Below the pieces are notes generated by a model. It made no database searches and was not told the DNA's origin. It saw only the letters and a program-made list of their open reading frames with translations. The position numbers and the translations under genes were made by a program. From the IMG/VR virus record IMGVR_UViG_3300029376_000363: DNA of 13,902 nt. One strand, written 5' to 3'. Below, one piece after another: positions 2,112-3,616 of the stretch. Positions within the stretch are counted from its first letter, which is position 1. Each line of letters begins with the position of its first letter. The DNA is from a virus (taxonomy: Duplodnaviria; Heunggongvirae; Uroviricota; Caudoviricetes).

Positions 2112-2939
2112 TTACTCTACCGGGTCAATGCTCACCAGTGCATTACCGCCGCTCACAGTGGGCAGCTTGCCATCCCACTTCTGAACCTTCTGGTAATCGA
2201 TCAGCGTATCGGACAGACTTTCTGCCAGTTTGCGGTTTGCCTCTGCCTGTGCGTCTGCGGCAATGGAAGTTTTCTGTGCTTCCGCCTCTGCATTGGTGAT
2301 CGCCACCTGCTTATCCGCTTCTGCCTTGGCAATGGCGGCTTCATTCTCAATCTTCTGCTTATCTGCGTTCTGCTGTGCAATGCTCTGCCCTTGCTGCTTC
2401 TCTTGAACACTAAAGTAACTATTTGGATCAGCATGGAGGTGGATGAGGTCAGTGATTCTGTTGAATTCCTGTGGGTCATTCTGCCAAGACTGATAAACCT
2501 CTTCAGCAGGAAGACCAAATCGCTGTAATACTGGATTTGCCTGCTGAATGGCCTTCTGCATGGTCAGTGGATCTCCAGTTTGTGACGCAAGACGCAGATT
2601 CATGGCAGCGTCAGCGGTCTGTCGATTTTGCTCAGCATCAATGAATCCCATCTGTTTTTGAGAATCAGCCATAAACTGGGGATACTGGGCCATTAACTTC
2701 TGCACGCCAACACGATCATTATTAGCTACCGCACTACCCAACCGTGCCTGATATTCTTTTAGCTGCTGGGAAATTTGCGCCTGCTGATTAATCTCAGCAA
2801 CGCCTCTTAGCCCCTGTAGCGCCATTAAACCTACGTTTGGCTGCTGCTGATACTGCACGGGCTGAGGAACGGAAGAACGAGGAGCATTATCATTTTGCGG
2901 TGCCATGCTAGGCAGCCCGCCAAGTTGCCATGTCGCCAT
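2112..2939 (-). CDS. Hypothetical Q/A/N-rich protein (275 aa), probably coiled-coil
   Basis: ATG at 2939 overlapping the upstream stop (TAATG). Low-complexity AEAEAQK / AKAEADKQ stretches. Mid-GC enterobacterial-like codon usage that differs from the adjacent chaperone gene. Confidence 0.7.
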   Translation of the reverse strand: MATWQLGGLPSMAPQNDNAPRSSVPQPVQYQQQPNVGLMALQGLRGVAEINQQAQISQQLKEYQARLGSAVANNDRVGVQKLMAQYPQFMADSQKQMGFIDAEQNRQTADAAMNLRLASQTGDPLTMQKAIQQANPVLQRFGLPAEEVYQSWQNDPQEFNRITDLIHLHADPNSYFSVQEKQQGQSIAQQNADKQKIENEAAIAKAEADKQVAITNAEAEAQKTSIAADAQAEANRKLAESLSDTLIDYQKVQKWDGKLPTVSGGNALVSIDPVE

Positions 2940-3616
2940 TAGAATCCAAGCCCCCCAACAAGACCAATAATCCCACCACCAATAGCGCCGGCCGCAGTAC
3001 CTATTCCAGGAACAACGGAACCAAGTTGCGCACCCGCTAAAGCGCCTGATGCTGCCCCACCAATACCACGCGCAAGACTGGATGGCTGCTGCGCCTGACC
3101 TGCACGAATAGCGCCAAGCCCCTGCAAGAGTTGCCCGGTATTATTGGCGTAGTTTTGCCCTGCTGTTGCCTGCCCTGATGCCGCATTCATCCCGACATTT
3201 AGCAGGTTTCCATAATTTTGCATTTGCCCACTAAGCCAATTGTTATAAAGCATGGGCGCAATGGAAGATAACTGGTTACTGGTAGCTGTTGAGCCAAGCC
3301 CCCCGGTAGCTTCTGCTGAGACAAGGTTCTGATAACGGGCCTGATCTGCCTGTGTTTTATATAAACCAGAACCAAAGAAATCATTCGCGGCTTTATTCTG
3401 CCCTTCCAGAGTCATCAGTCCTTGTAGTTGTTGTAAAGCAGGCAATCCGACTTCTGCATACGGCTTGAGATTATTCATCACCGTATTCCACTGCTCGCGC
3501 TGCAAATCAATTGCCTGCTGCTGGGCCTTCGCCTGAGCTTTAGAGGCACCACCATCACCGCCTTTTTCGTATACGGCACGATTGAGATGTTTATGAGCTA
3601 TATGGGTAATTAACAT
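2939..3616 (-). CDS. Hypothetical protein (225 aa) with glycine-zipper-like hydrophobic C-terminus
   Basis: ATG at 3616 overlaps the stop of the upstream gene. C-terminus GIGGAASGALAGAQLGSVVPGIGTAAGAIGGGIIGLVGGLGF looks like a glycine-zipper membrane segment. Q/A-rich N-terminal half. Confidence 0.7.
   Translation of the reverse strand: MLITHIAHKHLNRAVYEKGGDGGASKAQAKAQQQAIDLQREQWNTVMNNLKPYAEVGLPALQQLQGLMTLEGQNKAANDFFGSGLYKTQADQARYQNLVSAEATGGLGSTATSNQLSSIAPMLYNNWLSGQMQNYGNLLNVGMNAASGQATAGQNYANNTGQLLQGLGAIRAGQAQQPSSLARGIGGAASGALAGAQLGSVVPGIGTAAGAIGGGIIGLVGGLGF

What the first reader, a model, noticed from the sequence alone, without database searches (positions are those of the whole stretch)
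2112..3616. Translationally coupled Q/A-rich and glycine-zipper proteins of unknown role
The 225-aa protein ends in a long Gly/Ala/Ile segment typical of glycine-zipper membrane helices, while the 275-aa protein is dominated by Q/A/E/K low-complexity repeats. Similar composition occurs in tape-measure, ejection or pilot proteins and in membrane-active toxins. Their presence downstream of a satellite-type replication module is unexplained.
Basis: partly seen in the sequence, partly recalled or inferred. Interest (0 to 1): 0.5.

Follow-up and report, generated by a model that had tools for sequence, protein, structure and literature searches.

The report
P22-type ejection genes, chimeric contig
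The two "unknown" proteins are the well-known DNA-ejection proteins gp7 and gp20 of P22-like phages, carried by an already published type of E. coli phage satellite (EcCIMP1-like), and the second protein's odd Q/A/E/K tail is an artefact of a contig that wrongly joins E. coli DNA to a gut Clostridia phage.

Summary
Both ORFs exist on the minus strand and are coupled: gp7 stop and next start overlap as TAATG.

- **The 225-aa protein** is a complete member of the phage P22 gp7 ejection-protein family (Pfam PF25688, E=5e-73). Its Gly/Ala-rich C-terminus is conserved across the family.
- **The 275-aa protein** is a composite. Residues 1-193 are the N-terminus of a P22 gp20-type ejection protein (PF16928, E=7e-22). 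That protein is 439 aa in intact E. coli islands. The last ~82 aa come from an SPFH/Band-7 gene of a gut Clostridia siphophage.
- **The join** lies at a 23-nt string shared by both parents (window 2360-2382). This is the signature of an assembly chimera. Window 1-2382 is Clostridia-phage DNA. Window 2360-13902 is 99.0% identical, in one contiguous piece, to an island in E. coli CV839-06.
- **The island** is an EcCIMP1-type PICI (ISME J 2025), mobilised by the P22-like phage Kapi1. Downstream of its primase it carries a 53aa-gp14-gp7-gp20-gp16 cassette. The cassette is under purifying selection (dN/dS ~0.07) between E. coli and Leclercia copies.
- **Likely role (inferred):** the proteins are loaded into helper procapsids and form the trans-envelope DNA conduit.

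Verdict: ordinary, already known, low interest.

The parts
4088..4249 (-). 53-aa small ORF, the first gene of the post-primase cassette in EcCIMP1-type islands. No family match.
   Evidence: ORF. Annotated as the identical protein WP_001018524.1 in KP63, MP1, 042 and CV839-06. 85% aa identity in the Leclercia satellite copy. No Pfam, PHROG, NCBIfam or PADLOC hit.
3610..4071 (-). P22 gp14-type protein (DUF2824, 'head morphogenesis'), 153 aa. It overlaps the gp7 start by 7 nt.
   Evidence: PF11039 E=4e-62 and phrog_651 E=3e-67. 97% identical to EcCIMP1 and 85% to helper Kapi1_055.
2939..3616 (-). Complete P22 gp7-family DNA ejection protein, 225 aa, with a conserved Gly/Ala-rich hydrophobic C-terminus (aa 179-225).
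   Evidence: PF25688 E=5e-73 covering 19-229 of 230 profile positions, and phrog_598 'DNA ejection' E=2e-70. 98% identical to EcCIMP1 gp7 and 58% to Kapi1 gp7. The C-terminal Gly-rich region is conserved in satellite and prophage homologues.
2360..2939 (-). 5' part (codons 1-193) of a P22 gp20-type ejection protein gene. The native gene is 439 codons in intact islands.
   Evidence: PF16928 Inj_translocase E=7e-22 (aa 33-190) and phrog_917/2534 'released from the phage upon host infection'. E. coli homology stops at window 2360. Full-length 439-aa genes are present in KP63, MP1 and CV839-06.
2360..2382 (.). Chimeric junction: the 23-nt string CATTGCACAGCAGAACGCAGATA (read on the minus strand), shared exactly by the E. 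coli gp20 gene and the Clostridia-phage SPFH gene.
   Evidence: Three-way alignment and exact-string search. E. coli identity covers 2360 upward. Logan contig L003 identity covers 762-2382.
2112..2359 (-). 3' end (last ~82 codons) of an SPFH/Band-7 family gene of a gut Clostridia siphophage, fused in frame to the gp20 fragment.
   Evidence: 99.5% identical to Logan contig L003, where the ORF is a 183-aa (cut) SPFH protein with PF01145 E=5e-5. phrog_200 match for aa 178-266.
4834..7593 (-). Context: satellite primase/helicase (Zn-ribbon, Toprim, DUF927), 919 aa.
   Evidence: Pfam and phrog_1139 E=3e-178. Annotated as 'TOPRIM and DUF927 domain-containing protein' in all E. coli islands examined.
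1504..2099 (-). Context, foreign part: tail-assembly-chaperone-like gene pair of the Clostridia phage. It does not belong to the E. coli island.
   Evidence: phrog_709 E=2e-39 and phrog_3033 E=2e-23. ~70% nt identity to Clostridium, Ruminococcus, Coprococcus and Agathobacter phages, next to their tape-measure genes.

Best explanation
Window 2112-3616 holds part of the P22-type ejection (E-) protein cassette of an EcCIMP1-type phage-inducible chromosomal island of E. coli.

The 225-aa gene is a complete gp7 homologue. The 275-aa ORF is the first 193 codons of a gp20 homologue. An assembly chimera at a shared 23-nt string joins it in frame to the last ~82 codons of an SPFH gene from a gut Clostridia siphophage. 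Everything left of position ~2360 is from that phage.

In intact islands the cassette is 53aa-gp14-gp7-gp20-gp16, directly downstream of the primase.

Mechanism. Shown for P22 itself: gp7, gp20 and gp16 are recruited into procapsids through the scaffolding protein. They are expelled through the portal on adsorption and build the trans-envelope conduit through which DNA enters. All three are required. gp16 and gp20 must be a cognate pair, and whole foreign sets can replace P22's own.

Inferred for the island: after induction by a P22-like helper such as Kapi1, the island expresses its own cognate set. These proteins are co-assembled into helper-made procapsids. Particles carrying island DNA, and possibly helper particles too, then inject through an island-specified ejectosome.
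For: Family identity:
- P22_gp7 at E=5e-73, full length.
- Inj_translocase at E=7e-22.
- DUF2824 at E=4e-62.
- PHROG 'DNA ejection' and 'released from the phage upon host infection'.

Synteny:
- gp14-gp7-gp20-gp16 order as in P22-like prophages and Kapi1.

Island identity:
- Window 2360-12074 is 98.6% identical to EcCIMP1 of E. coli MP1.
- Window 2360-13902 is 99.0% identical, in one piece, to E. coli CV839-06.
- About 900 of 5426 complete E. coli genomes carry the cassette region.
- EcCIMP1 is excised and transferred only with the P22-like helper Kapi1 (PMC11773190).

Chimera:
- E. coli identity ends at 2360 and Logan contig identity (99.5%) ends at 2382.
- A 23-nt exact overlap is shared by both parents.
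- The left part matches only Clostridia-infecting phages, and window 111-1 encodes a tape-measure start.
- The exact fusion protein is not on record.

Functionality in the satellite context:
- A Leclercia satellite copy has all four genes intact, with dN/dS of 0.07-0.08.
- gp20 and gp16 alleles change together between islands while gp14 and gp7 stay 98-99% identical. This fits the cognate-pair requirement shown for P22 (PMC10461980).
- Island-versus-helper divergence is gp7 58%, gp20 ~27% and gp16 ~24%. That lies within the range of heterologous sets that work in P22 virions.
Against: - No experiment shows the island's E-proteins in virions or their need for transfer. The EcCIMP1 paper only names them as candidates for packaging.
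- EcCIMP1 transduction by Kapi1 is very inefficient, and helper titres are unchanged by the island. A strong effect on virion function is therefore not evident.
- The chimera is inferred from sequence comparison. Reads or coverage of the source assembly could not be inspected, so a real recombinant is not formally excluded.
- dS values are above 1 and partly saturated, so the dN/dS figures are approximate.
Confidence: 0.85

Rival explanations
1. The fusion is real. A natural recombinant island carries a gp20(1-193)-SPFH hybrid protein next to Clostridia-phage tail genes. The truncated gp20 might act as a dominant-negative decoy, loaded into procapsids through its N-terminus but unable to form a conduit.
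For: - The join is in frame and gives an intact 275-aa ORF with a natural stop.
- The N-terminal portions of gp7 and gp20 mediate procapsid incorporation (PMC8402733).
- C-terminal truncations of P22 gp20 give non-functional virions (PMC10461980).
Against: - The junction is an exact 23-nt string shared by two otherwise unrelated parents. Each parent exists intact elsewhere.
- The left flank stays Clostridia-phage DNA (chaperone pair, tape-measure start) to the window end and never returns to E. coli sequence.
- No E. coli genome of 5426 extends past position 2360.
- The exact protein is absent from the look-up collection.
- An in-frame join has a 1-in-3 chance.
- An E. coli island embedded in a Gram-positive siphophage tail module has no plausible biology.
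Confidence: 0.04
2. The cassette is a defence or exclusion device and not a transfer device. Island E-proteins (or gp14) made in the resident cell would interfere with the ejectosome of incoming P22-like phages, or would poison helper progeny by forming non-cognate gp16/gp20 mixtures. This would explain the EcCIMP1-dependent superinfection immunity.
For: - EcCIMP1 adds to superinfection immunity against Kapi1, with no known defence system found.
- No PADLOC hit for the cassette.
- Non-cognate gp16/gp20 combinations are non-functional in P22.
- SieA-type exclusion acts on gp16/gp20.
Against: - Kapi1 titres after induction and infection of non-lysogens are unaffected by EcCIMP1.
- E-proteins act from inside the virion. 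No precedent is known to me for cytoplasmic E-proteins blocking entry (own knowledge).
- A complete cognate set plus gp14 is conserved, which is more than a decoy would need.
Confidence: 0.15
3. The cassette is an inert remnant of a degraded P22-like prophage that happens to lie next to a P4-like integrase/primase island.
For: The region was first called an incomplete prophage in E. coli MP1. No capsid, portal or terminase genes are present.
Against: - The same primase-53aa-gp14-gp7-gp20-gp16 order, with intact ORFs, occurs at two E. coli integration sites (thrW/proA and yicC/dinD) and in Leclercia.
- dN/dS is 0.07-0.08.
- The element is a functional, helper-induced, transferable PICI.
Confidence: 0.03
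4. One reading: a tape-measure fragment or a glycine-zipper membrane toxin.
For: The Gly/Ala-rich hydrophobic tail has a KD19 maximum of 1.65 and many small-xxx-small motifs. There are marginal PHROG hits to tape-measure-like long proteins (E about 0.01).
Against: - The full-length match to P22_gp7 is about 70 orders of magnitude stronger.
- The Gly-rich tail is a conserved part of gp7 in bona fide P22-like prophages.
- No toxin or Gly-zipper Pfam family appears at E<=0.1.
- The Kapi1 record's DeepTMHMM note predicts no transmembrane helix for its gp7.
Confidence: 0.01

Closest known systems
Phage P22 ejection proteins gp7 / gp20 / gp16 with assembly gene 14 (Lederbergvirus; also Sf6, HK620, CUS-3, Kapi1)
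   Same: Same Pfam families for gp14, gp7 and gp20. Same gene order and overlapping starts and stops. Same size for gp7 (225 vs 229 aa) and for native gp20 (439 vs 431-471 aa). Conserved Gly-rich gp7 C-terminus. gp20/gp16 vary as a mosaic pair.
   Different: Encoded on a satellite without coat, portal, scaffold, terminase or tail genes. In the MP1-type island the gp16 counterpart is 906 aa with an N-terminal SLT lytic transglycosylase domain; Pfam was not run on Kapi1's 723-aa counterpart, whose blastp match to it covers only its aa 397-740. In this window gp20 is cut at codon 193 by the chimera and gp16 is missing.
EcCIMP1, phage-inducible chromosomal island of E. coli MP1 (Pick, Stadel & Raivio, ISME J 2025, PMC11773190)
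   Same: 98.6% nt identity over window 2360-12074. Same gene order: AlpA-type HTH, AntA, ash region, primase, 53aa, DUF2824, 'DNA transfer' genes. The helper is a P22-like phage whose gp14 is 85% identical.
   Different: The window's island has a different integrase plus an extra 281-aa gene, and sits at yicC/dinD as in E. coli 042 and CV839-06, not at thrW/proA. The paper calls the cassette genes hypothetical / DNA transfer / DUF2824 and does not assign them to gp7, gp20 and gp16.
T7 internal core / ejectosome proteins gp14, gp15, gp16
   Same: Functional analogues by size and synteny according to the review PMC8954989: a small outer-membrane pore protein, a periplasmic tunnel protein, and a large inner-membrane protein with a lytic transglycosylase domain. 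The MP1-type island gp16 also has an N-terminal SLT domain.
   Different: No detectable sequence similarity here. No PDB relative of gp7 or gp20 by sequence. The structural comparison could not be made because the AF2 model was too poor.
P4-type satellites of P2-like phages
   Same: Tyrosine integrase, AlpA-type regulator, large Toprim/DUF927-type primase. C4 antisense RNA and isrK in the immunity region, and an int-alpA RNA motif.
   Different: No psu, delta or sid capsid-redirecting genes were seen. The helper is a short-tailed P22-like phage, and the morphogenetic cargo is an ejection-protein cassette.

Membership tests
P22 gp7 DNA ejection protein (PF25688 / phrog_598) | Profile match above the curated threshold over the full length | tested here: met
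   246 bits against a cutoff of 28, E=5e-73, profile positions 19-229 of 230. phrog_598 E=2e-70.
P22 gp7 DNA ejection protein (PF25688 / phrog_598) | Position between gene 14 (DUF2824) and gene 20 in a coupled operon | tested here: met
   Gene order and overlaps in the window. Same order in Kapi1 and in 12 P22-like prophage loci.
P22 gp7 DNA ejection protein (PF25688 / phrog_598) | Conserved Gly/Ala-rich hydrophobic C-terminus | tested here: met
   Alignment of 8 homologues from satellites and prophages. Composition and hydropathy.
P22 gp7 DNA ejection protein (PF25688 / phrog_598) | Present in virions and released on adsorption; required for DNA delivery | not testable with these tools
   Known for P22 (PMC8402733, PMC10461980). 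Not examined for any island copy.
P22 gp20 ejection protein (PF16928 Inj_translocase) | Profile match above the curated threshold in the N-terminal half | tested here: met
   78.6 bits against a cutoff of 29.7, E=7e-22, aa 33-190. phrog_917 E=3e-46.
P22 gp20 ejection protein (PF16928 Inj_translocase) | Full-length protein of about 430-470 aa with its essential C-terminal region | tested here: not met
   Only codons 1-193 are gp20-like in the window. Intact islands have 439 or 473 aa. The C-terminus is essential in P22.
EcCIMP1-type PICI | Integrase, AlpA-type regulator, primase and post-primase cassette in the same order, with near-identity to EcCIMP1 | tested here: met
   98.6% over 9.7 kb to MP1. 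99.0% over 11.5 kb to CV839-06. Annotation tables.
EcCIMP1-type PICI | Helper-dependent excision, circularisation and transfer | not testable with these tools
   Shown for EcCIMP1 with Kapi1 (PMC11773190). Not shown for this variant.
Tape-measure protein | Significant match to a tape-measure family, length of several hundred to thousands of aa, position after the chaperone pair | tested here: not met
   Only an E=0.013 hit limited to the Gly-rich tail. A separate tape-measure start is at window 111-1 in the foreign part.
Glycine-zipper membrane proteins / toxins (Pfam Gly-zipper families) | Match to a Gly-zipper family profile | tested here: not met
   No such family at E<=0.1 in Pfam. No PADLOC hit.
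SPFH / Band 7 (PF01145), for the C-terminal 82 aa of the 275-aa ORF | SPFH domain present in the protein | tested here: not met
   The parental ORF on Logan contig L003 has the domain (E=5e-5, 24.0 bits against a cutoff of 23.6). The window retains only the tail after the domain.

The most novel reading that the evidence does not exclude
The EcCIMP1-type satellites re-equip helper-built P22-like virions with their own cognate ejectosome (gp7 + gp20 + gp16, with gp14). This would change where and into whom DNA can be injected. For example, it could let island-carrying particles bypass SieA-type exclusion in lysogens that hold the helper, or it could underlie the unexplained EcCIMP1-dependent superinfection immunity. 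That would be a satellite strategy acting on genome delivery, as opposed to capsid size or packaging specificity. The evidence does not exclude it: the cassette is conserved, selected and allele-swapped as a pair. It is untested.
Probability: 0.3. Interest if true: 0.6.

Novelty: already known. Interest (0 to 1): 0.2.

Why it matters
As a finding it mostly closes a question. The proteins are not orphans but textbook podovirus ejection proteins. Their satellite context is published. The peculiar composition of the second protein is an assembly artefact that should not be annotated as a gene.

One point has residual interest. A widespread E. coli satellite family, present in roughly one in six complete genomes, carries a complete ejection-protein set under purifying selection, and the role of that set has never been tested. 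If it changes DNA-delivery specificity or exclusion, it would add a new lever to the known ways satellites exploit helpers.

Tried and rejected
- **Exact-sequence look-up of the 275-aa protein:** not on record. Used as support for the chimera.
- **PDB sequence searches with gp7 and full-length gp20:** only noise, E>=0.17.
- **AlphaFold2 of gp7 from a single sequence:** mean pLDDT 46.7, pTM 0.25, all-helical but unreliable. No fold search was run on it.
- **NCBIfam:** no model for gp14, gp7, gp20 or gp16, apart from a weak SLT-related hit for the 906-aa protein.
- **PADLOC:** nothing for the cassette.
- **Promoter and terminator scan of 1300-4900:** counts at shuffle expectation. Uninformative for the operon start.
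- **Literature searches for satellites or PICIs with ejection proteins:** only EcCIMP1 is relevant.
- **Possible second chimera at window ~12074,** where EcCIMP1 identity ends: rejected. Window 11100-13902 is contiguous at 99.8% in E. coli 042, and the whole 2360-13902 stretch is contiguous in CV839-06.
- **Prophage-remnant reading:** rejected on conservation and dN/dS.
- **One protein alignment call failed** on a coordinate error and was redone in a script.
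Full report
**Observation**

On the minus strand the window has a 225-aa ORF (2939-3616) and a 275-aa ORF (2112-2939). The stop of the first overlaps the start of the second (TAATG). The upstream 153-aa ORF (3610-4071) overlaps the 225-aa ORF by 7 nt (ATGTTAA).
- The last 47 residues of the 225-aa protein contain 16 G, 9 A, 5 L and 5 I, with a maximum Kyte-Doolittle 19-residue hydropathy of 1.65.
- The 275-aa protein is 14.9% Q and 13.8% A.

**Identity of the proteins**

- The 225-aa protein matches Pfam P22_gp7 over its full length (E=5e-73, 246 bits against a cutoff of 28). It also matches PHROG 598 'DNA ejection' (E=2e-70).
- The 275-aa protein matches Inj_translocase, the P22 gp20 family, at residues 33-190 (E=7e-22). 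It also matches PHROGs 917 and 2534, 'released from the phage upon host infection'.
- The upstream 153-aa protein is DUF2824 / phrog_651, the P22 gene 14 family (E=4e-62).
- The Gly/Ala-rich C-terminus is a conserved feature of gp7 homologues in both satellites and P22-like prophages. It is not a sign of a toxin or tape measure. No Gly-zipper or toxin family is hit at E<=0.1, and the only tape-measure hit is E=0.013 on the Gly-rich tail.

**The 275-aa ORF is a composite created by a chimeric contig**

- Against 5426 complete E. coli genomes, identity of about 99% starts exactly at window 2360 and never extends further left.
- The whole stretch 2360-13902 is contiguous at 99.0% in E. coli CV839-06.
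- Window 762-2382 is 99.5% identical to a short Logan assembly contig (L003). In that contig the ORF upstream of the same 144-aa gene is an SPFH/Band-7 protein (PF01145).
- The two parents share an exact 23-nt string, CATTGCACAGCAGAACGCAGATA (window 2382-2360, minus strand). On one side of it the window follows E. coli; on the other side it follows the Logan contig.
- The left part of the window matches only phages of gut Clostridia (Ruminococcus, Coprococcus, Agathobacter, Clostridium) at about 70% identity.
- That left part contains a tail-assembly-chaperone pair (phrog_709, phrog_3033). It also contains the first 37 codons of a tape-measure gene at 111-1.
- The exact 275-aa sequence is not on record in the gene-position collection.

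A join at a k-mer-sized identity, between an enterobacterial island and a Gram-positive siphophage tail module, with both parents intact elsewhere, is the signature of a de Bruijn-graph misassembly. I put a real recombinant at about 4%. Residues 1-193 are therefore native gp20. Residues 194-275, the A/K/E-rich part, are the tail of a foreign SPFH protein.

**Context**

The E. coli part is an EcCIMP1-type phage-inducible chromosomal island.
- It is 98.6% identical over 9.7 kb to EcCIMP1 of E. coli MP1.
- EcCIMP1 was shown to excise, circularise and transfer only with the temperate P22-like phage Kapi1 (PMC11773190).
- That paper notes that the genes after the primase resemble 'DNA transfer' and DUF2824 proteins of the helper and are candidates for packaging. 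It does not test them.
- In intact islands the cassette is 53aa-gp14-gp7-gp20-gp16. The gp20 is 439 aa. The gp16 counterpart is 906 aa with an N-terminal SLT domain.
- The window's variant has the integrase and integration site (yicC/dinD) of E. coli 042 and CV839-06 instead of thrW/proA.
- Rfam finds C4 antisense RNA, isrK and the int-alpA motif, which together indicate a P4-type regulatory region.

**Is the cassette functional in satellites?**

- In one-genome-per-species contigs, 13 loci encode a close gp7 relative whose gene context could be read (15 were returned). Twelve are P22-like prophages with coat, gp4, gp10 and gp26 upstream. One, in Leclercia adecarboxylata, has the satellite order primase-53aa-gp14-gp7-gp20-gp16.
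- Between the E. coli and Leclercia satellite copies, dN/dS is 0.067, 0.072, 0.067 and 0.084 for gp14, gp7, gp20 and gp16. dS is above 1, so these figures are approximate.
- Between E. coli islands, gp14 and gp7 are 98-99% identical. gp20 and gp16 switch together between two allele pairs: 439 aa + 906 aa, and 473 aa + 701 aa.

**Mechanism**

For P22 it is established that:
- gp7, gp20 and gp16 enter procapsids through the scaffolding protein, and the N-terminal parts of gp7 and gp20 mediate this;
- they leave the virion before the DNA and form the trans-periplasmic conduit;
- all three are required for injection;
- gp16 and gp20 must be a cognate pair;
- complete sets from other P22-like phages (gp7 65-94% identical, gp20 21-50%, gp16 22-26%) can replace P22's own;
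- escape from SieA exclusion maps to gp16 and gp20 (PMC8402733, PMC10461980).

The review PMC8954989 treats gp7, gp20 and gp16 as the counterparts of T7 gp14 (outer-membrane pore), gp15 (periplasmic tunnel) and gp16 (inner membrane).

The island proteins are 85% (gp14), 58% (gp7), about 27% (gp20) and about 24% (gp16) identical to those of Kapi1. That is within the range of interchangeable sets.

My inference is that the island's set is co-assembled into helper procapsids and builds the conduit for DNA delivery. Whether this serves transfer, exclusion bypass or interference is open. EcCIMP1 does not change Kapi1 titres but adds to superinfection immunity in lysogens, and the mechanism is unknown.

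**Comparison and verdict**

The two genes are members of known families. gp7 is complete. gp20 meets the profile test but fails the full-length test in this window because of the chimera. The element is a variant of a published PICI and is near-identical to islands in hundreds of sequenced E. coli genomes.

Nothing here is new in kind.

The open, mildly interesting question lies outside the finding as written: what a satellite gains from carrying its own ejectosome.

Dead ends were as follows: PDB sequence searches, a single-sequence AlphaFold model with pLDDT 46.7, NCBIfam, PADLOC on the cassette and the promoter scan.

Noticed in passing
window 242-1288 (+): A three-gene set, DUF3791 (81 aa), DUF3990 (193 aa, weak ART-PolyVal similarity) and an 83-aa protein, matches the PADLOC candidate defence system PDC-M13 (E down to 7e-30). 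It lies on the opposite strand between the tail-assembly-chaperone pair and the tape-measure start of the Clostridia-phage part, like a moron inside a tail module.
   Followed up: partly
window 1-111 (-) and 1504-2099 (-): The first 37 codons of a tape-measure gene run off the left end (84% identical to Clostridium phage NatCom_42228 TMP). The chaperone-like ORFs of 144 and 75/54 aa overlap. An A-run (GAAAAAAC, about position 1690) near the end of the first is a candidate -1 slippery site.
   Followed up: partly
window 10012-10099 (-), 10162-10239 (-), 13246-13312 (-): Rfam hits above gathering score: C4 antisense RNA (81 bits), isrK (69 bits) and int-alpA RNA (61 bits). The first two lie inside the 355-aa ORF that RefSeq annotates as 'ash family protein' (9553-10620), so that long ORF may be partly spurious. 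The island has a P4-type immunity region although its helper is a P22-like podovirus.
   Followed up: no
window 10989-10998: A run of 10 N inside the AntA/AntB antirepressor gene (10922-11620). It is a scaffold gap or a masked stretch.
   Followed up: no
window 4690-4815: About 125 nt in the low-GC intergenic region after the primase gene recur in inverted orientation (78-81% identity) near the perC gene at the far end of intact islands (KP63, MP1, 042). This may be a shared regulatory or packaging-related element.
   Followed up: no
L006 12598-15318 (EcCIMP1), L007 5312-7417 (E. coli 042); outside the window: The gp16 counterpart comes in two unrelated alleles that travel with matching gp20 alleles: 906 aa with an N-terminal SLT lytic transglycosylase domain (recalling T7 gp16), or 701 aa with no Pfam/NCBIfam scan hit recorded and no SLT in its RefSeq product name. 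The 906-aa type has a 53%-identical relative in a P22-like prophage of an Enterobacteriaceae MAG (L009).
   Followed up: partly
window 12380-13225 (-): A 281-aa ORF between the AlpA-type gene and the integrase, present in the yicC-site islands (042, CV839-06) but absent from EcCIMP1. It has no Pfam or PADLOC match.
   Followed up: no
window 3583-3978: This stretch (3' two-thirds of the gp14 gene and the first codons of gp7) is 90% nt-identical to helper phage Kapi1. The rest of the cassette is far more diverged, which suggests recent exchange between satellite and helper-type phages.
   Followed up: partly
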